Shown here one piece after another: positions 22,792-41,091 of a DNA stretch of 64,000 nucleotides. The first letter of the stretch is position 1; the number at the start of each line of letters is the position of its first letter. Source of the DNA: a phage; sequence record PZ445511.1; one strand, given 5' to 3'. Below the pieces are notes generated by a model that did not search any database, had not been told where the DNA came from, and saw nothing but the letters and a program-made list of their open reading frames with translations. Both the position numbers and the translations under genes were made by a program.

Positions 22792-22820
22792 TTGCTAATC
22801 GCTACCAGATTTGCTATAAT
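22792..22820 (+). promoter_or_regulatory. Sigma70 promoter for nrdB
   Basis: ttgcta-17bp-tataat. Confidence 0.6.
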
Positions 22821-25774: not shown

Positions 25775-25803
25775 TTGCTTACTGAGTGAAATTCAAATAT
25801 AAT
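25775..25803 (+). promoter_or_regulatory. Sigma70 promoter
   Basis: ttgctt-17bp-tataat. Confidence 0.55.
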
Positions 25804-30946: not shown

Positions 30947-31210
30947 ATGATTTTTCATATTCTTATTGATGATGTGCGTAACCTTCATGGAATGGACATT
31001 ATAATTCGAACCCCCGAAGCCGCTGTTGAGTTTCTGAATAAAACCGATACCACAGGTCATTTCGTTTATATGGATAACGATCTGGCTGTAGATGATATGG
31101 AAGGTTATCAAATTCTTCGTTTACTCCTAGAATTTGGTCAGAGACCCAAGAAAGTGGTACTAGTAACCTCGAACCCTTCGTCTAAGAGACCATGCGTAAT
31201 GATCTCTTAG
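30947..31210 (+). CDS. Hypothetical protein
   Basis: 87-aa ORF after promoter and gagacgagg RBS. Confidence 0.5.
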   Translation: MIFHILIDDVRNLHGMDIIIRTPEAAVEFLNKTDTTGHFVYMDNDLAVDDMEGYQILRLLLEFGQRPKKVVLVTSNPSSKRPCVMIS

Positions 31211-31268
31211 ACGAAGGGTATCAAGAAAGCCCTAATCGTATTGAGTACGATTGGCCGGAGTAAATAAA

Positions 31269-32927: not shown

Positions 32928-32965
32928 TAATAGTGGGGTGCCGAAACCACTTATGTAACAACACT

Positions 32966-33037
32966 GCCGTCCTAGTATAATAGGTATTATTAGGGCTTCA
33001 CCGCCTGAAGATGTGGGTTCGAGTCCCACGGTCGGAA
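32966..33037 (+). other. tRNA-like element (canonical T-arm, non-canonical anticodon arm, no CCA)
   Basis: gtgggTTCGAGTcccac T-arm plus 6-of-7 acceptor pairing; 5-nt loop where anticodon loop should be. Confidence 0.3.
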
Positions 33038-33499
33038 AGAGTTGGATAACTGGTGCTTCTAATGGCGAAGCAATCGCAGGCAGTTGCGCACTGCCAAAAC
33101 CACGCGGTAGTTGGTTCCAGGCTAACCAACCACTCTTGAAAAGTATATACTACGGTTTTGCTTGTTCAGGAAGCTTCGCATCGAAAATCGGAGGTGCGAT
33201 TTTATCAGACCGCGTGGAGGACGTCTCTCCGTTAAGTGACGAAAAGTGGGACGATTCAGGTAGAGCTGGATATGGAACACCTATACATATGCGGAGTGCG
33301 CACAAAGCATATTGCGGTGGTACTAAACGAAATTAGGAGTCATGACCTGCACAAGTTTAGTATGTCATAACCGATGTACATTCAGTACAAAAACCACTGA
33401 AGCTAAGATAGATAGTCACCTTGACTTAAACTGGAAGATATTGTCTGACGGAAGGGCTGCAGAGCTTAATCTGAGGGGGCTGACCCTACCTACCGTCGG

Positions 33500-33539
33500 G
33501 TATCTTTAAGAGTTCTTACGAGAACTCTTAAAGATACCT
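33500..33539 (+). other. Perfect 18-bp inverted repeat hairpin with TACG loop
   Basis: ggtatctttaagagttct / agaactcttaaagatacc, exact complement, 18 nt upstream of the next ORF. Confidence 0.8.
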
Positions 33540-35383: not shown

Positions 35384-35537
35384 GCTTTTCTATATTTAAG
35401 GCAAAAGAAAAAGCCCATAAGTTATTCAACTAAGGTCTTTAGTATTTAATTCTTTAGAATCATATACTATTATTGCAGCAACAACGTGCTAACCTTAAGT
35501 GCCCTGCGATTTTCCTCTAAAAAGTTAAAAAATTCGA

Positions 35538-35566
35538 TTGCTTGAATGCTAAATTCTCTGTATAAT
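35538..35566 (+). promoter_or_regulatory. Sigma70 promoter for nadR-pnuC
   Basis: ttgctt-17bp-tataat; leader identical to the one at 37402-37437. Confidence 0.6.
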
Positions 35567-35596
35567 ATATTTATAAATTTGAGAGAGGAATCAAAT

Positions 35597-36652
35597 ATGA
35601 TTAAGACTGGTCTAGTAATTGGTAAGTTCGCACCATTAACGCGTGGTCATATTAACCTAATAAACACAGCAGCAACTATGTGTGAACGAGTTATTGTTGT
35701 AGTTAGTCATGATAATCGTTGGCTGGATAAGCAGAACACACGTGATAAGGAAGTATTACAGTTAAAGAATCGACTTCGTTGGTTAGAACAAACTTACGCG
35801 GATATTGAGCACATTTCGGTAGAGTACATTATTGAAGATGATATTCCTGAATATCCGAATGGTTGGCCGGAATATGCTAGAATCCTTAATGAAAATTACG
35901 GACATTTGCCTGAGATCACCGTTTTCTCTAGCGAACTAGACTATGATGCAGAATATAAGAAATATCTGCCGAAGTTTGGTCATTATATTGTAGATTCTGA
36001 TCGGACTCGTGTTCCAATCTCAGCTACAATGATTCGTAATGATCTTATGAAGTATTGGGAGTTTCTTCCTAGCGTAGTTCGTAAAGATTACGTGCGTAAG
36101 GTTGTAATCATTGGGACTGAAAGCTCGGGAAAGACTACTTTAACAAAATACCTTGCGAAGCTATACAACACTTCGTGGGTAGAAGAATATGGTCGAACGT
36201 ATTGTGAAGTTGATCTAGTTGGTAACGAAAATCTGCTTACCAGCGAAGATTATAGTAAAATTGCGTTCAGACACAAAGAGCTAGAGTTTGAAGCAGAACG
36301 TACTGCAAATAAGATCATGTTTGTGGATACAAATGCTTTTATTACTGAGTTCTACCACAGACTTTATGAACATAGTAAGAATCCTGTGGTTACAGCAATT
36401 GCAAAAGAAGAACATTATGATTTAGTAATTGTTCTAGCGCCTACTGTCAAGTGGGTAGATGATGGTTTACGTATTAACTCCGATCGTTCAATTACTTCTG
36501 AACTATTCGAGCAGATGAAGAAAGAATTTCCAAATCAGTTCCCTGAAGGGCGTACTGTTTACATCGACTCTCCGGACTACAAAGTTCGTATGGACGAAGC
36601 AGTAAACGCAGTAGACTGGCTGATTCATCACTTTAACGTTGGAGAGTTTTAA
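35597..36652 (+). CDS. nadR: NadR-type bifunctional NMN adenylyltransferase / ribosylnicotinamide kinase
   Basis: N-terminal nucleotidyltransferase GKFAPLTRGH (HxGH-class), C-terminal P-loop GTESSGKTTL kinase; start set after gagagagg RBS. Confidence 0.75.
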   Translation: MIKTGLVIGKFAPLTRGHINLINTAATMCERVIVVVSHDNRWLDKQNTRDKEVLQLKNRLRWLEQTYADIEHISVEYIIEDDIPEYPNGWPEYARILNENYGHLPEITVFSSELDYDAEYKKYLPKFGHYIVDSDRTRVPISATMIRNDLMKYWEFLPSVVRKDYVRKVVIIGTESSGKTTLTKYLAKLYNTSWVEEYGRTYCEVDLVGNENLLTSEDYSKIAFRHKELEFEAERTANKIMFVDTNAFITEFYHRLYEHSKNPVVTAIAKEEHYDLVIVLAPTVKWVDDGLRINSDRSITSELFEQMKKEFPNQFPEGRTVYIDSPDYKVRMDEAVNAVDWLIHHFNVGEF

Positions 36653-36653
36653 T

Positions 36654-37331
36654 ATGACTAACTATCTCGTAAATGACTTTAAAAACTGGAAACCTCTGGA
36701 ATATCTGTGGCTGTTCATAGCGGTTGTCTTCATTAGTTTAGCAAACTATAATGGTACAGCTCTAGATTGGGCTACTGCAATAACCAATGTGGTTTGTGTT
36801 ATTCTGGTTGCAAAAGGACGTATTTCCAACTATATTTGGGGCTTAGTGGGTGTTCTTACATATGGTATTACAGCTTTAAACGCAGATCTTTATGGTAACG
36901 CTGCACTAAACCTGCTATACTACGTTCCTATGCAGTTTTATGGAATGTACTTATGGCATAAAAATAAGCCAAGTAATCTGCCAGATGTTCCAACTAAGGT
37001 TCTGACTAAAGCCCAAGCTCTGCTGACTCTAGGGATTCTAGCAGTAGCCACGTTAGGGTATGGTAGTTTCTTAGCTACTACGGCTGATCCATTTCCAATG
37101 TTGGATGCATTTACTGCTGTAGGTAGTGTGATCGCTATGTGGCTTATGGTTAAGCAATATGCCGAGCAGTGGCTGATCTGGATTGCTATTAACATTGGTA
37201 CTGTGTACATTTGGCTTGTAACTGCTCAATCTACAGGTGCATCTTATGCAATCCTAGCAATGTGGCTAGTATTCTTAGGTAACTCTATTATAGGAGCCTA
37301 TAAAGGATACTTTGTACGCGTTAACAAATAA
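36654..37331 (+). CDS. pnuC: PnuC-like nicotinamide riboside transporter
   Basis: Multi-helix membrane protein with conserved W/Y-rich PnuC-like blocks; coupled to nadR. Confidence 0.65.
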   Translation: MTNYLVNDFKNWKPLEYLWLFIAVVFISLANYNGTALDWATAITNVVCVILVAKGRISNYIWGLVGVLTYGITALNADLYGNAALNLLYYVPMQFYGMYLWHKNKPSNLPDVPTKVLTKAQALLTLGILAVATLGYGSFLATTADPFPMLDAFTAVGSVIAMWLMVKQYAEQWLIWIAINIGTVYIWLVTAQSTGASYAILAMWLVFLGNSIIGAYKGYFVRVNK

Positions 37332-37338
37332 AGTAGTT

Positions 37339-37364
37339 ATAGCCCTCGCTTAGAGGGCTATTAT
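37339..37364 (+). terminator. Hairpin terminator after pnuC
   Basis: atagccctc-gctta-gagggctat, weak U-tract. Confidence 0.45.
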
Positions 37365-37378
37365 ACAGAAATTTTCAC

Positions 37379-37407
37379 TTGCTTAATATAGAAAATTTCT
37401 GTATAAT
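37379..37407 (+). promoter_or_regulatory. Sigma70 promoter
   Basis: ttgctt-17bp-tataat; -10 plus leader plus RBS duplicated from nadR promoter. Confidence 0.6.
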
Positions 37408-37437
37408 ATATTTATAAATTTGAGAGAGGAATCAAAT

Positions 37438-37734
37438 ATGAAACGCATTGTACTTGCATTGACTCTAGTATCTACTTCTGTATTTGCTGCTCCACAACAG
37501 GAACTTTGTCAAGTTCAAGTTTGTAATAAGCTAGAACGATTTACTCTAGACATTTGGTCCCACATTAAAGATAATATGGGTGAACAGTGTTTTGATATTG
37601 TTCTGCCAAAAGAACAAGCTGTTCCTGGGGCTGTTCTCAGCTCAGAATCACGTTGGTGGCAAGGTTCTTCTATCAACCCAACTAAGAAGTCAGTGACACG
37701 TATCAAACAAGTATATCAGTGCAACGTTCAGTAA
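37438..37734 (+). CDS. Secreted Cys-containing protein
   Basis: Signal peptide MKRIVLALTLVSTSVFA then mature domain with 4 Cys. Confidence 0.55.
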   Translation: MKRIVLALTLVSTSVFAAPQQELCQVQVCNKLERFTLDIWSHIKDNMGEQCFDIVLPKEQAVPGAVLSSESRWWQGSSINPTKKSVTRIKQVYQCNVQ

Positions 37735-37742
37735 AATTTCAC

Positions 37743-37771
37743 TTGCTTAATGCCGAAATTTTCTGTATAAT
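37743..37771 (+). promoter_or_regulatory. Sigma70 promoter
   Basis: ttgctt-17bp-tataat. Confidence 0.55.
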
Positions 37772-37804
37772 ATATTCATAAATTTGGAAGATTAGGAACT
37801 ATTT

Positions 37805-38314
37805 ATGTTAGACTATGAGTCTATACTTTATAGATTCCGTTTAGAAGATGGTGTACTGGTGTGGAATCCGCTCTCCGGAAACTCCAGAGAGGAGAAGATA
37901 TTTAATACTAAGTTTGCCAATAAACCTGCGGGATCTTTGCACAAAAGCTCTGGGTATATCAGAGTTAACGTTGATCACCAAGATTACTTAGCTCATATCA
38001 TAGTATTTATACTATGATATGGGTATAGGCCGGAAATGGTTGATCATAAAGACTGCAATAAGTTAAATATACATCCTTTAAATTTAAGAGCAGCGGATAG
38101 TACCACTAATACTCATAATGCTAGTAAATCTTCTAGGAATACTAGCGGATTTAAGGGAGTATCCTACCACAAAGCATCTGGTCAGTGGCAGGGTAGAATA
38201 ATGTTTAAAGGTAAGTCATACTCCGCAGGGCTGCACAGTACTCCTGAAGCAGCAAATGAAGCTCTAATTCAACTGAGAGAGAAACTTCATGGGGAATATG
38301 CCCGAAATAATTAA
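37805..38314 (+). pseudogene. HNH homing endonuclease interrupted by in-frame TGA at 38015-38017
   Basis: Reading continues in the same frame across TGA: ...AHIIVFIL-stop-YGYRPEMVDHKDC..., matching the paralog sequence FIMYYGYRPEEVDHKD. Confidence 0.55.
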
Positions 38315-38403
38315 GGAAGAATAGCATAACGGTATTGCAGCAGATTGCTAATCTGTCGGTTTGAAACATAGCCTTGTGGGTTCGATTCCCACTTCTTCCG
38401 CCA
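38315..38403 (+). tRNA. tRNA-Ser (anticodon GCT), class II
   Basis: Acceptor ggaagaa/ttcttcc, anticodon loop ttgctaa, long variable arm, T-arm gtgggTTCGATTcccac, CCA. Confidence 0.75.
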
Positions 38404-38408
38404 AATTT

Positions 38409-38486
38409 GGTTCTCAAGCTCATTTGGTATGAGCCGTCGCCTCATAAGCGAAAGGTAGGTAGGTTCGAATCCTCCGGGAGCCACCA
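38409..38486 (+). tRNA. tRNA with CAT anticodon (Met or Ile2)
   Basis: Acceptor ggttctc/gggagcc (two G-U), D-arm gctc...gagc, anticodon loop ctcataa, T-loop TTCGAAT, CCA; A at position 8. Confidence 0.65.
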
Positions 38487-38635
38487 GATAACTAGGAGAC
38501 TTTATGTCACGCTTTCACGAAATTAAGCAAGAACTAGAAGAATGTATGTGTACTGAATGTTGGGGTTCTGGCACTTAATGTTCCAGTGACTGGATTCCCT
38601 GATTGGCTGCAAGGTTACGAACTCTAACAAAATTT

Positions 38636-38721
38636 GGATCTGTGGTGGAATTGGCAATACACACCATGCTTAAAACGTGGCGCTTAAATGATTGAGGGTT
38701 CGAGCCCCTCCAGATCCACCA
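38636..38721 (+). tRNA. tRNA-Leu (anticodon TAA), class II
   Basis: Acceptor ggatctg/cagatcc, anticodon loop cttaaaa, 13-nt variable arm, T-arm gagggTTCGAGCccctc, CCA. Confidence 0.75.
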
Positions 38722-38737
38722 AATTAAGGAAGTAAAA

Positions 38738-38860
38738 ATGAAATCTATTAAGAAAGCTATTCGTGAACTTATCCGTTGTCGCTTCCATAACATCAAGGCT
38801 TCAACTAATGGTACTACTTACGATCGCTATGATCCTAAGTTTGGCTTACATTCTAAATAA
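38738..38860 (+). CDS. Hypothetical small protein
   Basis: 40-aa ORF with aaggaag RBS. Confidence 0.35.
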   Translation: MKSIKKAIRELIRCRFHNIKASTNGTTYDRYDPKFGLHSK

Positions 38861-38873
38861 CTGGAGAAAACAA

Positions 38874-39080
38874 ATGGCTAATCCTGAAATTACGGCACAA
38901 CGTTTTATGCTGAAAGGAATTATTGCTGAAGCAGGCGTGACACAAGAAGTGGAAGATTTCCATAAGCAGTTCCTAAATATTCTCACTCAAGCCAAAGAGC
39001 TAGGAGAGAAAGAACATGGCGCGGCTATTATGGCAATCACATTGGTTGGGCTTGATCTGGCAGAAGAATCAGGAGTTTAA
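38874..39080 (+). CDS. Hypothetical protein
   Basis: 68 aa from ATG after ggagaaa RBS. Confidence 0.45.
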   Translation: MANPEITAQRFMLKGIIAEAGVTQEVEDFHKQFLNILTQAKELGEKEHGAAIMAITLVGLDLAEESGV

Positions 39081-39110
39081 CTTCTCCAAGCAGAAATTTT
39101 AAAAATGTAC

Positions 39111-39140
39111 TTGCTTTTTACTTAAGATTTCTGCTATAAT
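39111..39140 (+). promoter_or_regulatory. Sigma70 promoter
   Basis: ttgctt-18bp-tataat. Confidence 0.5.
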
Positions 39141-39169
39141 AGTTATATAAGTTGATGAGAGGAATCAGA

Positions 39170-39445
39170 ATGTTAAAACGTTTTGCAGCAACTGGTATTG
39201 AAAGCTCAGTATGTAAATCCTGGGGTGGTTGGGAAGGTGAGATCGAGTGGCTTTATTTCTACAATGTAGAACTTCTTCCAGAGATCAAAGCTCAATGTAT
39301 TGAGGCTGGTATGGCTCCTGATGCTACGGCTGATGTTGAAATCAGCATGAATAAGCTAGAGGGTCGAGTAGTCACTGTTACTGATGAAGGTGAAGAGGTA
39401 TTCGAACTTCCATTCACTTTGAAAGTCACTCCTTCATTTGATTAA
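39170..39445 (+). CDS. Hypothetical protein
   Basis: 91 aa from ATG after gagagg RBS. Confidence 0.5.
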   Translation: MLKRFAATGIESSVCKSWGGWEGEIEWLYFYNVELLPEIKAQCIEAGMAPDATADVEISMNKLEGRVVTVTDEGEEVFELPFTLKVTPSFD

Positions 39446-39483
39446 CTGATACAGCACTTGAGCAAGTTCTTTAAAATTTGACT

Positions 39484-39512
39484 TGCTCAAGTGCCTTAAA
39501 ACTTGATATAAT
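39484..39512 (+). promoter_or_regulatory. Sigma70 promoter for tRNA transcription unit; -35 lies inside a 13-bp inverted repeat
   Basis: ttgctc-17bp-tataat; approx 124-nt leader before tRNA-Tyr. Confidence 0.55.
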
Positions 39513-39636
39513 AGTTACCTAATTTGGAAACATATCTGAATGAGAAGTAATTAAGCGAGTTGCTTTGAGGGATAAAGTCAGGATAGCCGGAAATATTCCA
39601 CCTTGAGTTTAACCGACTTACTTTTCATTCAAATAT

Positions 39637-39717
39637 GGGGGATTGGCTCAGTGGCGACGGCGCCTGGCTGTAGACCGGGTATATCACGCGGAGGTTCGAG
39701 TCCTCCATCCCCCACCA
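39637..39717 (+). tRNA. tRNA-Tyr (anticodon GTA)
   Basis: Acceptor gggggat/atccccc, anticodon stem cctgg/ccggg with loop ctgtaga, extended variable region, T-arm ggaggTTCGAGTcctcc, CCA. Confidence 0.7.
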
Positions 39718-39725
39718 AAATTAAT

Positions 39726-39800
39726 GCACCTATCGTCTAATGGTTAGGACATCAGGATTTCAATCTGAGAATTGAACTCCGATTCTCCGTGGGTGTGCCA
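39726..39800 (+). tRNA. tRNA-Glu-like (anticodon TTC) with degenerate T-arm
   Basis: Good acceptor, D- and anticodon arms (loop atttcaa); T-arm tgaac/tccgatt/ctccg pairs poorly; CCA encoded. Confidence 0.45.
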
Positions 39801-39809
39801 ATTAATAAT

Positions 39810-39880
39810 TGGGGTACACATAGGTTGCTAGTGGGCCTCCAAAACCCATGAAAAGGTTTCGAATACCTTTACCCCTGCCA
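39810..39880 (+). tRNA. tRNA-Trp-like (anticodon CCA) with truncated D-arm
   Basis: Canonical T-arm aaggtTTCGAATacctt and CCA; anticodon loop ctccaaa with C31-A39 mismatch; U1-U72 mismatch; only 15 nt for the D region. Confidence 0.35.
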
Positions 39881-39886
39881 ATATTT

Positions 39887-39961
39887 GCACCTTTAGCTGA
39901 GATGGATTAGCGCTTGCCTGAAGAGCTTGAGAGGTTCGTTCAATTCGAACAGGGTGCACCA
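39887..39961 (+). tRNA. tRNA-Phe (anticodon GAA), weak anticodon stem
   Basis: Acceptor gcacctt/agggtgc, D-arm gctg...tagc, anticodon loop ctgaaga, T-arm gttcgTTCAATTcgaac, CCA. Confidence 0.55.
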
Positions 39962-39978
39962 ATTTGAAGGAGATGCTG

Positions 39979-40251
39979 ATGCATCCTGAAAACTTCTTTA
40001 TATACTGTACTAGTCCTTTGCTTAAACGCCGGATTAATAAAGTATATCACTACAGAGCTAGTCAACAGCCTTATGTTTATGATTCTAGTGGAGATCATAT
40101 TCCACTTGAGCAACTAGGGACTGATTATATGGTTTTGAAGCACTTTAATGAGGCGAAGATCTCTAGCGTTCATAACCGACAAAACTCTAAAACGTGGTGG
40201 CATAAGAAGCGTAAGAAAGGCATCAAATTTCTTAAAAATGTAGTTGCTTAA
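39979..40251 (+). CDS. Hypothetical protein
   Basis: Track ORF begins at TTG 39964 abutting the tRNA; ATG at 39979 has aggag at proper spacing. Confidence 0.45.
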   Translation: MHPENFFIYCTSPLLKRRINKVYHYRASQQPYVYDSSGDHIPLEQLGTDYMVLKHFNEAKISSVHNRQNSKTWWHKKRKKGIKFLKNVVA

Positions 40252-40272
40252 ATCCTTAAAGTTCTGTATAAT
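40244..40272 (+). promoter_or_regulatory. Sigma70 promoter
   Basis: ttgctt-17bp-tataat overlapping upstream stop codon. Confidence 0.55.
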
Positions 40273-40300
40273 TATTACATAAATTGAACTGGAGAACTAG

Positions 40301-40489
40301 ATGAAAGCACCTAAACCGAAATTAGTTAAGTTCGACTGCTGTGATACTGAAATCTTATTTACTAAGTTTGGTGAATTTAAGATGTGTGAATGTGGAACAT
40401 GTGGTTACGATCATGGTGATGGATATTATTGCAGAACCCTAGGGCCTTCTGAACTAATCCACTTCTCATGGCCGGAAAGTAAAGAATAA
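40301..40489 (+). CDS. Hypothetical Cys-rich small protein
   Basis: 62 aa with CC...CxC...CxxC pattern; ggagaa RBS. Confidence 0.5.
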   Translation: MKAPKPKLVKFDCCDTEILFTKFGEFKMCECGTCGYDHGDGYYCRTLGPSELIHFSWPESKE

Positions 40490-40491
40490 TA

Positions 40492-40567
40492 CGACCGTTG
40501 GCTGAATGGCTTAGGCGGAGGCCTGCAAAACCTCCTTATGTGAGTTCGAATCTCATGCGGTCGTCCA
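40492..40567 (+). tRNA. tRNA-Cys (anticodon GCA)
   Basis: Acceptor cgaccgt/gcggtcg, anticodon loop ctgcaaa (C31-A39), T-arm gtgagTTCGAATctcat, CCA. Confidence 0.65.
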
Positions 40568-40719
40568 ATTTGCTGAAAGAATTGTTAAATCAATTCAGGC
40601 ACGCGTAGGAACACTGCCTCAGTAATTGAAAGATGAGGCACGGTTTGGAGAGGTATGCCGCTACACGCTACGGTGCTAACTCCGTCTAGGTGAAAATCCT
40701 AGTCAGCAATATAAATTTA

Positions 40720-40802
40720 GGGTCGTTAGCCAAGCGGTTTGGCGGTGGACTGTTAATCCATGTCGAAAGACAACGTAGGTTCGAATCCTACACGGCCCGC
40801 CA
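40720..40802 (+). tRNA. tRNA with GTT anticodon (Asn) and unusual 13-nt variable arm
   Basis: Acceptor gggtcgt/acggccc, D-arm gcca...tggc, anticodon loop ctgttaa, variable gtcgaaagacaac, T-arm gtaggTTCGAATcctac, CCA. Confidence 0.65.
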
Positions 40803-40905
40803 TATTCTATGTAGGATTAAGTAAACCGGTAGCCAACCAGCTATCATTACTGATATCGAATTCAGTCACAGATACCATTTTTCACTAACAACTGAGGAAA
40901 TAGAT

Positions 40906-41091
40906 ATGACAACTCGTGCAATTGCTCGACTAGAAGCTGATCGTGATAATCTGATTAATAATATTAAGGTTCGTGGTAATATTATTAAGGCTCTGAAAGC
41001 TGAACTTCTTGAAGAACTTCAAGGTCAAGTAGAGCGTCGTGAAGCTCTAAAAGAGGTTGAGGAAGCTATCGAAAAACTCAAGGCTGAATAA
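40906..41091 (+). CDS. Hypothetical coiled-coil protein
   Basis: 61-aa ORF with gaggaaa RBS. Confidence 0.5.
   Translation: MTTRAIARLEADRDNLINNIKVRGNIIKALKAELLEELQGQVERREALKEVEEAIEKLKAE

What the first reader, a model, noticed from the sequence alone, without database searches (positions are those of the whole stretch)
39456..39494. 13-bp perfect inverted repeat overlapping the -35 of a tRNA-unit promoter
cacttgagcaagt ... acttgctcaagtg flanks a 13-nt AT-rich spacer and includes the -35 hexamer. This may be an operator for a dimeric regulator, or a terminator-promoter overlap.
Basis: seen in the sequence. Interest (0 to 1): 0.45.

Follow-up and report, generated by a model that had tools for sequence, protein, structure and literature searches.

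The report
Conserved hairpin embedding a phage promoter
The inverted repeat is real and kept by evolution in T5-like phages, apparently as a stem-loop in RNA read through from upstream, wrapped around the promoter of a tRNA gene cluster, rather than as a repressor binding site; its exact job is still unknown.

Summary
The window is a T5-like Salmonella phage (99.9% identical to vB_SenS-3). The repeat is real and slightly larger than reported. It has 14-bp perfect arms (39454-39467 / 39481-39494) and a 13-nt A/T-rich loop. No dinucleotide shuffle gave a perfect repeat this long.

The 3' arm carries the -35 (TTGCTC) of the promoter that T5's GenBank record annotates as P14a. P14a drives tRNA-Tyr, Glu, Trp and Phe. 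The loop sits where the UP element should be.

The pairing, not the sequence, is conserved:
- T5 has a 13-bp perfect version.
- Other T5-like phages show G.U intermediates and fully compensated substitutions.
- The window lineage has a compensated one-base insertion in both arms.
- Homologous promoter cassettes in Vibrio Thalassavirus phages (two tandem copies) and Proteus phage PM135 (before DNA ligase B) keep the stem with different arm sequences.
- Four pairs change on both sides. All nine one-sided changes in the ten outer pairs are G.U on the + strand.
- The Vibrio P2 copy folds well only as + strand RNA.

This favours an RNA stem-loop formed in read-through transcripts from the upstream promoter. 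It most likely acts as a 3'-end-forming, protecting or insulating hairpin. It has no U-tract and a 13-nt loop, so it is not a canonical terminator. An operator, a cruciform and a neutral quasi-palindrome are less likely. The function is inferred, not shown.

The parts
39454..39467 (+). 5' arm of the inverted repeat (GCACTTGAGCAAGT), about -65 to -52 of the promoter. It is non-coding and starts 8 nt after the stop codon of the upstream ORF.
   Evidence: conserved with compensatory changes
39468..39480 (+). 13-nt A/T-rich loop (TCTTTAAAATTTG), in the UP-element position (about -51 to -39) of the promoter
   Evidence: the whole promoter family has an A/T-rich block here
39481..39494 (+). 3' arm (ACTTGCTCAAGTGC), about -38 to -25. 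It contains the -35 hexamer TTGCTC (39483-39488) and the first spacer bases.
39483..39512 (+). Sigma-70 type promoter: -35 TTGCTC, 18-bp spacer, extended -10 TGATATAAT (39504-39512). Homologue of the annotated T5 promoter P14a. Start site about 39519 (inferred).
39111..39140 (+). Upstream same-strand promoter (homologue of T5 P15c). Its transcripts must read through the repeat, so the hairpin is made as RNA.
   Evidence: the terminator scan listed no site between it and the repeat
39170..39445 (+). Upstream ORF (91 aa, T5.072 homologue, phrog_4551, unknown function). The hairpin lies in its 3' untranslated region.
39531..39637 (+). Structured 107-nt leader of the tRNA unit, closed by a 20-bp stem (90% complementary) that abuts tRNA-Tyr. 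It belongs to the unit driven by the promoter, not to the repeat.
   Evidence: (I2)
39637..39961 (+). tRNA-Tyr, Glu, Trp and Phe cluster transcribed from the promoter

Best explanation
The repeat is a selected stem-loop that works as single-stranded + strand RNA. It is an integral 5' part of one particular promoter cassette of Demerecviridae phages, P14a in T5.

RNA polymerase that starts at the upstream same-strand promoter (39111-39140) transcribes the small ORF and then the repeat. The nascent RNA folds into a 14-bp hairpin just as the polymerase crosses the UP/-35 region of the tRNA-unit promoter.

The most likely job is to mark the end of the upstream message. It could do so as a barrier to 3' exonucleases, as a processing site, or as a weak or factor-dependent pause or termination site. 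That would uncouple the tRNA-Tyr unit, which has its own promoter, from incoming transcription. Transcripts started at P14a itself do not contain the hairpin.

Shown: the repeat, its conservation, its covariation and its strand asymmetry. Inferred: that it is transcribed, and what the RNA does.
For: (1) The repeat is far beyond chance and folds strongly.

(2) Among 24 distinct T5-like variants, 97.4% of pair cells are paired. Two pairs change on both sides. One-sided changes in the core are all G.U on the + strand.

(3) Compensated indel. T5 and saus132 have 13-bp perfect arms. Phages atrejo, mar003J3 and oselot carry an extra A in the 3' arm only. The window lineage carries the extra A plus the matching T in the 5' arm.

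(4) Homologous cassettes in Vibrio Thalassavirus phages (two tandem copies) align colinearly and keep the stem with different arms. There are 4 pairs with changes on both sides. The covariation score is 0.333 against 0.159 in shuffles (0 of 500 reach it) and at most 0.124 when the partners are slid. In the ten outer pairs there are nine G.U cells, and the only unpaired cells are two at the second pair from the base.

(5) Strand and chemistry asymmetry. Vibrio P2 folds at -20.5 kcal/mol (z = -5.7) as + strand RNA and at -11.1 as - strand RNA. As DNA it is not significant on either strand (-4.2 and -2.8 kcal/mol). The SSP1 variant gives -19.6 against -11.8.

(6) A search defined only by promoter bases (86 distinct promoters) found the repeat only in homologous cassettes. 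One was new: Proteus phage PM135, in front of DNA ligase B.

(7) In the window, PM135 and Vibrio P2 a same-strand promoter lies a short way upstream; Vibrio P1 follows the end of an ORF. Read-through RNA containing the hairpin is therefore expected.
Against: No RNA data were available, so transcription through the repeat and any 3' end there are inferred.

The hairpin lacks a U-tract (it is followed by CCTTAAAAC), has a 13-nt loop, and was not called by the terminator scan. Efficient intrinsic termination is therefore unlikely.

In Vibrio phages and PM135 the hairpin sits only about 45-60 nt downstream of another promoter with no ORF between. An efficient terminator there would make the upstream promoter pointless.

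In the L002-type variants the second pair from the base favours the - strand.

The number of independent compensatory events is small, perhaps 5 to 7. Template-switch correction of quasi-palindromes could produce compensated changes without selection.

A dyad-symmetric protein site would also show symmetric changes.
Confidence: 0.45

Rival explanations
1. Operator. A dimeric phage or host DNA-binding protein recognises the two arms on double-stranded DNA. It occludes the UP element and the -35, and so switches the tRNA-unit promoter off or on during the early programme.
For: The dyad is perfect, centred at about -45 and covers the -35. The outer GCA...TGC bases and the overall span of the dyad are invariant across cassettes. 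The mechanism that switches T5 transcription classes is unknown (PMC7472727). Symmetric changes in both half-sites are also what a co-evolving dimer site would show.
Against: The arm sequence is not conserved. P1 and P2 in the same Vibrio genome differ at five of the ten outer pairs, so one protein could not read both. All one-sided changes in those outer pairs are G.U on one strand. One lineage carries an insertion inside one half-site only, and the window has insertions in both, which changes the half-site spacing. The arm centres are 27 bp apart, about 2.6 helical turns, which puts them on opposite faces. The window has no further copies of the half-site beyond chance. The adjacent ORFs have no recognisable DNA-binding domain.
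Confidence: 0.12
2. Neutral quasi-palindrome. An inverted copy of the -35 region arose once by a template switch. It is kept perfect by repeated template-switch correction during replication and has no function of its own.
For: The 3' arm is dictated by the promoter consensus (ACTTGCT..A.TGC is family-wide), so only the 5' arm needs explaining. The compensated T/A insertion is exactly the kind of change that quasi-palindrome correction produces.
Against: The stem persists in three lineages of the family Demerecviridae: T5-like phages (Tequintavirus and Epseptimavirus, subfamily Markadamsvirinae), Vibrio Thalassavirus (subfamily Ermolyevavirinae) and Proteus phage PM135. Their flanks are unrelated. 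Correction should give perfect Watson-Crick arms, not stable G.U states that favour one strand (three in Vibrio P2). The 5' arm is much better conserved than the adjacent ORF end and linker.
Confidence: 0.13
3. DNA-level structure. A cruciform, or a single-strand DNA hairpin, sequesters the -35. This would make the promoter sensitive to supercoiling, or make it serve as a replication or priming signal.
For: The repeat is perfect with an A/T-rich centre, which favours extrusion. As DNA both strands of the window fold at -15.6 kcal/mol.
Against: A cruciform needs both strands to fold. In Vibrio P2 neither DNA strand folds significantly (-4.2 and -2.8 kcal/mol, z = -0.8 and -0.2). In SSP1-type variants the - strand carries A.C mismatches. 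From general knowledge, T5 virion DNA is linear and nicked, which would relax the supercoiling needed for extrusion unless the nicks are sealed.
Confidence: 0.07

Closest known systems
Terminator-promoter fusions of T5-type phages, such as the rho-independent terminator overlapping promoter P10a annotated in T5 (AY543070). The window has many equivalents, for example upstream of the promoters at 22792, 55952, 58328, 17022(-) and 7940(-).
   Same: A hairpin placed at the end of one transcription unit, physically overlapping the upstream part of the next early promoter on the same strand.
   Different: In those fusions the whole G+C-rich hairpin lies upstream of the promoter, and its T-run doubles as the A/T-rich upstream block. 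Here the UP region is the loop, the -35 is inside the 3' arm, the loop is 13 nt and no T-run follows.
Intercistronic stem-loops that act as RNase III processing sites or as 3' protective hairpins, such as the phage T7 early-region sites and bacterial REP-type stabilisers (from general knowledge)
   Same: A U-tract-less stem-loop between units of a long polycistronic phage transcript, conserved as a structure rather than as a sequence.
   Different: The stem is only 13-14 bp, with no internal loop. No cleavage data exist. Unlike those elements, it is tied to a promoter cassette and travels with it.
Palindromic operators overlapping the -35, such as the lambda/434 type and LexA boxes (from general knowledge)
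   Same: Dyad symmetry positioned over the -35 and the upstream region of a sigma-70 promoter.
   Different: The half-sites co-vary rather than stay fixed, lie 27 bp apart, tolerate indels and have no other copies.
Hairpin or single-strand promoters: phage N4 early promoters, and F-plasmid Frpo and related ssi signals (from general knowledge)
   Same: Promoter elements embedded in an inverted repeat.
   Different: In those cases the hairpin itself is the polymerase recognition structure. Here only the -35 lies in the stem, the -10 is outside, and the promoter is an ordinary duplex sigma-70 promoter of the T5 family.

Membership tests
Sigma-70 early promoter of the T5 family (T5 P14a) | -35-like TTGCT, spacer of 17 +/- 1 bp, -10 TATAAT with an upstream TG, and an A/T-rich block upstream of the -35 | tested here: met
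   TTGCTC, 18 bp, TGATATAAT. The upstream 20 nt is 75% A/T. It is one of about 37 near-identical promoters in the window.
Sigma-70 early promoter of the T5 family (T5 P14a) | Positional and sequence homology to a promoter annotated in T5 | tested here: met
   It aligns to the T5 feature 'promoter P14a' (35524-35598), upstream of tRNA-Tyr. The T5 feature holds only the last few bases of the 5' arm.
Sigma-70 early promoter of the T5 family (T5 P14a) | Mapped transcription start in infected cells | not testable with these tools
   No RNA data were available. The start at about 39519 is inferred from the -10 position.
Intrinsic (rho-independent) terminator | Stable G+C-rich stem just downstream of a stop codon | tested here: met
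   14-bp stem, 50% G+C, -23.7 kcal/mol, starting 8 nt after the stop codon of the ORF at 39170-39445.
Intrinsic (rho-independent) terminator | Short loop (about 3-8 nt) | tested here: not met
   The loop is 13 nt in the window, T5 and PM135, and 18-19 nt in the Vibrio cassettes.
Intrinsic (rho-independent) terminator | U-tract directly after the stem | tested here: not met
   The stem is followed by CCTTAAAACTTG, and the element is absent from the terminator scan. The same holds in the homologous cassettes.
Palindromic operator of a dimeric regulator | Dyad symmetry over core promoter elements | tested here: met
   Perfect 14-bp dyad centred near -45 and covering the -35.
Palindromic operator of a dimeric regulator | Half-site sequence conserved among homologous sites, and the same site recurring at co-regulated promoters | tested here: not met
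   The arms co-vary. Vibrio P1 and P2 differ within the same genome. Matches to the half-site in the window are at chance level. None of the other roughly 36 family promoters has this repeat.
Palindromic operator of a dimeric regulator | A cognate DNA-binding protein | tested here: inconclusive
   The two adjacent ORFs match only PHROG families of unknown function and no Pfam domain. The rest of the genome was not screened.
Cis-acting structured RNA element | Base pairs maintained by compensatory and wobble changes, above the controls | tested here: met
   Alignment A1: 97.4% paired, 2 pairs changed on both sides. Alignment A3: 4 pairs changed on both sides, covariation 0.333 against 0.159 in shuffles (0 of 500 reach it) and at most 0.124 when slid. 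The sequences are few and related.
Cis-acting structured RNA element | Strand specificity (G.U on the transcribed sense) | tested here: met
   Nine G.U cells on the + strand in the ten outer pairs, where the only unpaired cells are two at the second pair from the base. Fold energies are asymmetric between strands, and between RNA and DNA parameters.
Cis-acting structured RNA element | Membership of a described RNA family | tested here: not met
   Rfam 15 gave no match at the repeat at E-value up to 1.
Cruciform-forming DNA repeat | Both strands can fold | tested here: not met
   True for the window. Not true for Vibrio P2 (DNA folds are not significant on either strand) or for SSP1-type variants.
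RNase III processing site | Double-stranded RNA substrate that is cleaved in vivo | not testable with these tools
   The 13-14-bp stem is at the lower limit for a substrate. No cleavage data are available.

The most novel reading that the evidence does not exclude
The hairpin and promoter form a mobile cassette. RNA made by an upstream promoter folds over the transcribed copy of the next promoter's UP/-35 region. That fold would control how the two tandem promoters interfere with each other, for instance by a hairpin-assisted pause or release of the incoming polymerase just before the downstream -10. This would be a cis-acting layer of early-gene control in T5-like phages, whose class-switching mechanism is still unknown.
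Probability: 0.15. Interest if true: 0.7.

Novelty: new variant of a known kind. Interest (0 to 1): 0.45.

Why it matters
T5-type phages transcribe everything with the host polymerase, and how they time and balance their many near-identical early promoters is unresolved (PMC7472727).

A structure-conserved hairpin built into one promoter cassette gives a concrete, mutable cis element with which to test how neighbouring transcription units are insulated or coupled. The cassette sits in front of the tRNA-Tyr unit. A paper read here reports that T5 tRNA-Tyr rescues retron Eco7 toxicity (cited in PMC10644984).

The result also cautions against annotating promoter-overlapping palindromes as operators. 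Here the comparative data point to RNA.

Tried and rejected
- Canonical terminator: rejected. There is no U-tract, the loop is 13 nt, and the scan did not call it.
- Divergent promoter on the - strand using the mirrored -35: by eye, no acceptable -10 at 16-19 bp in the window or in T5. No - strand promoter near the repeat was listed by the scans.
- Regulon of half-sites: searches with mismatches returned chance-level counts. The 11-nt third copy at 40103-40113 is part of one such 2-mismatch match.
- Known RNA family: Rfam found only tRNAs in 37000-41000.
- General property of T5 promoters or of 18-bp-spacer promoters: rejected. Only homologous cassettes have this repeat, both among about 37 promoters in the window and among 86 distinct promoters from viral contigs. 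The window's own ligase B promoter does not fold significantly (z = -1.5).
- Metagenome scan: mostly chance matches. Only six contigs passed the promoter filter, and they gave two informative stem variants, L094 and L098.
- Literature: searches for T5 transcript-end maps or for any description of this repeat found nothing usable.
- One fold input (L005) had the wrong coordinates and was ignored.

Full report
**What the window is.** The region is 99.9% identical to Salmonella phage vB_SenS-3. It matches about 450 T5-like (Demerecviridae) phage records. The finding lies in the tRNA gene region. ARAGORN tRNAs, all on the + strand.

**The observation.**
- The quoted 13-mers sit at 39455-39467 and 39481-39493. 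The next outer pair, G39454 with C39494, also matches.
- The element is therefore a 14-bp perfect inverted repeat, GCACTTGAGCAAGT / ACTTGCTCAAGTGC, around a 13-nt loop, TCTTTAAAATTTG.
- The window contains four perfect repeats of at least 14 bp with loops of at most 30 nt. Sixty dinucleotide-preserving shuffles gave none.
- As RNA the hairpin folds at -23.7 kcal/mol, z = -6.8.
- The 3' arm contains TTGCTC (39483-39488), followed by an 18-bp spacer and an extended -10, TGATATAAT (39504-39512).
- With the start site placed at about 39519 (inferred), the 5' arm is -65 to -52, the loop is -51 to -39 (the UP-element position) and the 3' arm is -38 to -25.

**The promoter.**
- A regular-expression scan finds about 37 near-identical promoters in the window. 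Their approximate consensus is aaaaatt..a.TTGCT....GC...AAAATTcTGTATAATatatttataaat.
- The target is one of them. It is the homologue of the feature 'promoter P14a' in the T5 record AY543070, upstream of tRNA-Tyr, Glu, Trp and Phe.
- The T5 annotation holds only the last few bases of the 5' arm, so the repeat itself is not annotated there.
- About nine family promoters are preceded by canonical terminators whose T-run merges into the A/T-rich upstream block. T5 annotates one such overlap at P10a.
- The target is the only promoter in the window whose -35 lies inside the 3' arm of a hairpin.

**Comparative evidence within T5-like phages.** I collected the cassette from IMG/VR, metagenomes and GenBank phages.
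- T5 and most relatives have a 13-bp perfect version, GCACTGAGCAAGT / ACTTGCTCAGTGC.
- SSP1 and Th1 have GCATTGGGCAAGT with an unchanged 3' arm. This gives two G.U pairs on the + strand.
- L002, KPP2018, HMD-P5 and Stp1 have the same 5' arm with ACTTGCCCAATAC. Both positions are now fully compensated.
- L094 adds a third G.U pair.
- Phages atrejo, mar003J3 and oselot carry an extra A in the 3' arm only, which makes a bulge. The window and its closest relatives carry that A plus a matching extra T in the 5' arm, which restores a perfect 14-bp stem.
- Only the second pair from the base, and one loop-closing pair, are ever broken.
- On 24 distinct sequences, 97.4% of pair cells are paired and two pairs change on both sides. 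Partners slid by one to three columns give 25-42% paired.

**Beyond T5-like phages.**
- BLAST matched the promoter part to Vibrio Thalassavirus phages.
- Two tandem copies of the cassette, P1 and P2 about 100 bp apart, sit in front of a small ORF and a tRNA cluster.
- Both copies carry the same architecture with different arms. P1 has GCAGAGAGCA / TGCTCTCTGC. P2 has AAAGCATTTGGTA / TTGCTAAGTGCTTT, with three G.U pairs.
- MAFFT aligns the T5-like and Vibrio cassettes colinearly. The outer GCA...TGC bases are invariant.
- On that alignment four pairs change on both sides. The covariation score is 0.333, against 0.159 in shuffles (0 of 500 reach it) and at most 0.124 for slid partners.
- There are nine G.U cells on the + strand in the ten outer pairs. 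The only unpaired cells there are two at the second pair from the base. The three innermost pairs are not kept in the Vibrio copies.
- A further search was defined only by promoter bases, with no constraint on the 5' arm. It returned 86 distinct promoters from viral contigs.
- Only homologous cassettes had the repeat. One was new: Proteus phage PM135, in front of DNA ligase subunit B. Its arms are GGCTCTTAGCAAGT / ACTTGCTAAGTACC, with 10 perfect pairs plus 2 outer pairs around a 13-nt loop.
- BLAST independently links the PM135 cassette to the T5-like P14a cassette (H124 and H125).
- The window's own ligase B promoter has no significant fold.

**DNA or RNA, and which strand.**
- Vibrio P2 folds at -20.5 kcal/mol (z = -5.7) as + strand RNA and at -11.1 as - strand RNA. 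With DNA parameters neither strand is significant (-4.2 and -2.8 kcal/mol).
- The SSP1 variant gives -19.6 against -11.8.
- This pattern, together with the bulged intermediate, argues against a cruciform, which needs both strands to fold.
- It also argues against a rigid dimeric operator. One regulator could not read both P1 and P2 of one Vibrio genome, which differ at five of the ten outer pairs.
- The window has no other copies of the half-site beyond chance.
- The flanking ORFs (phrog_4551 and phrog_5876) have no recognisable domain.
- One exception to the strand bias: in the L002-type variants the second pair from the base favours the - strand.

**Mechanism.**
- The hairpin is not part of P14a's own transcript, because it ends at -25.
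- It is expected in RNA from the upstream promoter at 39111-39140 (the T5 P15c homologue), which reads through the 91-codon ORF at 39170-39445. The terminator scan listed no site in between.
- In PM135 and at Vibrio P2, another same-strand promoter lies 45-60 nt upstream.
- The best-supported reading is therefore a transcribed stem-loop that belongs to the promoter cassette and acts on incoming read-through RNA. It could act as a 3'-end barrier, a processing site, or a weak or factor-dependent pause or termination site that insulates the downstream unit.
- It fails the terminator definition: the loop is 13 nt and no U-tract follows. Efficient termination would also make the close upstream promoters of the Vibrio and PM135 cassettes pointless.
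- I therefore treat the function as inferred. My rough estimates are 0.8 that the pairing is selected, 0.6 that it acts as RNA, and 0.45 for the explanation as a whole.
- A neutral origin by quasi-palindrome correction remains possible. It fits poorly with stable, strand-biased G.U states and with retention across two subfamilies.

**What is known.** Rfam has no family here. The papers I could search do not describe this repeat. They state that the mechanism of T5 class switching is unknown (PMC7472727). One cites work reporting that T5 tRNA-Tyr rescues retron Eco7 toxicity (PMC10644984).

**Verdict.** The operator reading is not supported. The terminator-promoter overlap reading is right about the geometry but not about the mechanism. 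The element is a new variant of the known theme of hairpins at the junction of phage transcription units. Interest is moderate.

Noticed in passing
window 39726-39797 and about 39810-39880: ARAGORN missed two tRNA genes between tRNA-Tyr and tRNA-Phe. Rfam finds tRNA-Glu (35.2 bits). tRNA-Trp(cca) aligns with 5 mismatches over the 71 nt of the annotated T5 tRNAW.
   Followed up: partly
window 39531-39637: A structured 107-nt leader lies between the promoter and tRNA-Tyr. It is closed by a 20-bp stem (90% complementary) that abuts the tRNA 5' end (-32 kcal/mol, z = -3.5). It is conserved but unannotated in T5, and it is not a paralogue of the annotated T5 stable RNAs. Many relatives have a different, roughly 65-nt shorter leader, so about 39535 is a mosaic junction.
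   Followed up: partly
window 37359-37408 (with a terminator-like hairpin at 37339-37361): An 18-bp perfect inverted repeat, TATTATACAGAAATTTTC / GAAAATTTCTGTATAATA, encloses the -35 of the promoter at 37379-37407. The 5' arm is an inverted copy of the extended -10, so the - strand carries a mirror TGTATAAT.
   Followed up: no
window 39089-39135: The upstream promoter (T5 P15c homologue) also sits in an inverted repeat, AGCAGAAATTTTAA / TTAAGATTTCTGCT (14 nt, one mismatch). Here the -35 is in the loop and the -10 edge is in the 3' arm. This geometry recurs at 25775 and 43292. It may follow from the palindromic AAATTT found in both the upstream block and the spacer consensus.
   Followed up: partly
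window 33499-33538: An 18-bp perfect hairpin with a 4-nt loop and no U-tract lies about 20 nt upstream of a ribosome-binding site and an ATG. It is a candidate double-stranded RNA processing site.
   Followed up: no
window 31173-31219: A 17-bp perfect inverted repeat with a 13-nt loop. Its context was not examined.
   Followed up: no
whole window, both strands (for example 19189, 27356, 32410, 58328; 17022 and 7940 on the - strand): There are about 37 near-identical T5-type early promoters. About nine are fused to a canonical upstream terminator whose T-run doubles as the A/T-rich upstream block.
   Followed up: partly
L055 285-440 (Vibrio phage Hades) and L206 268-400 (Proteus phage PM135): The hairpin-promoter cassette occurs as a tandem duplicate in Thalassavirus phages and in front of DNA ligase B in PM135. 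At Vibrio P2 and in PM135 it lies 45-60 nt downstream of another promoter, so it behaves as a movable module.
   Followed up: partly
window 32965-33038: ARAGORN calls a tRNA-SeC with anticodon tca. This could be an opal-reading or mistyped phage tRNA.
   Followed up: no
window 40103-40113: A third exact copy of CACTTGAGCAA lies inside the ORF at 39964-40251. The count of such matches is at chance level.
   Followed up: yes
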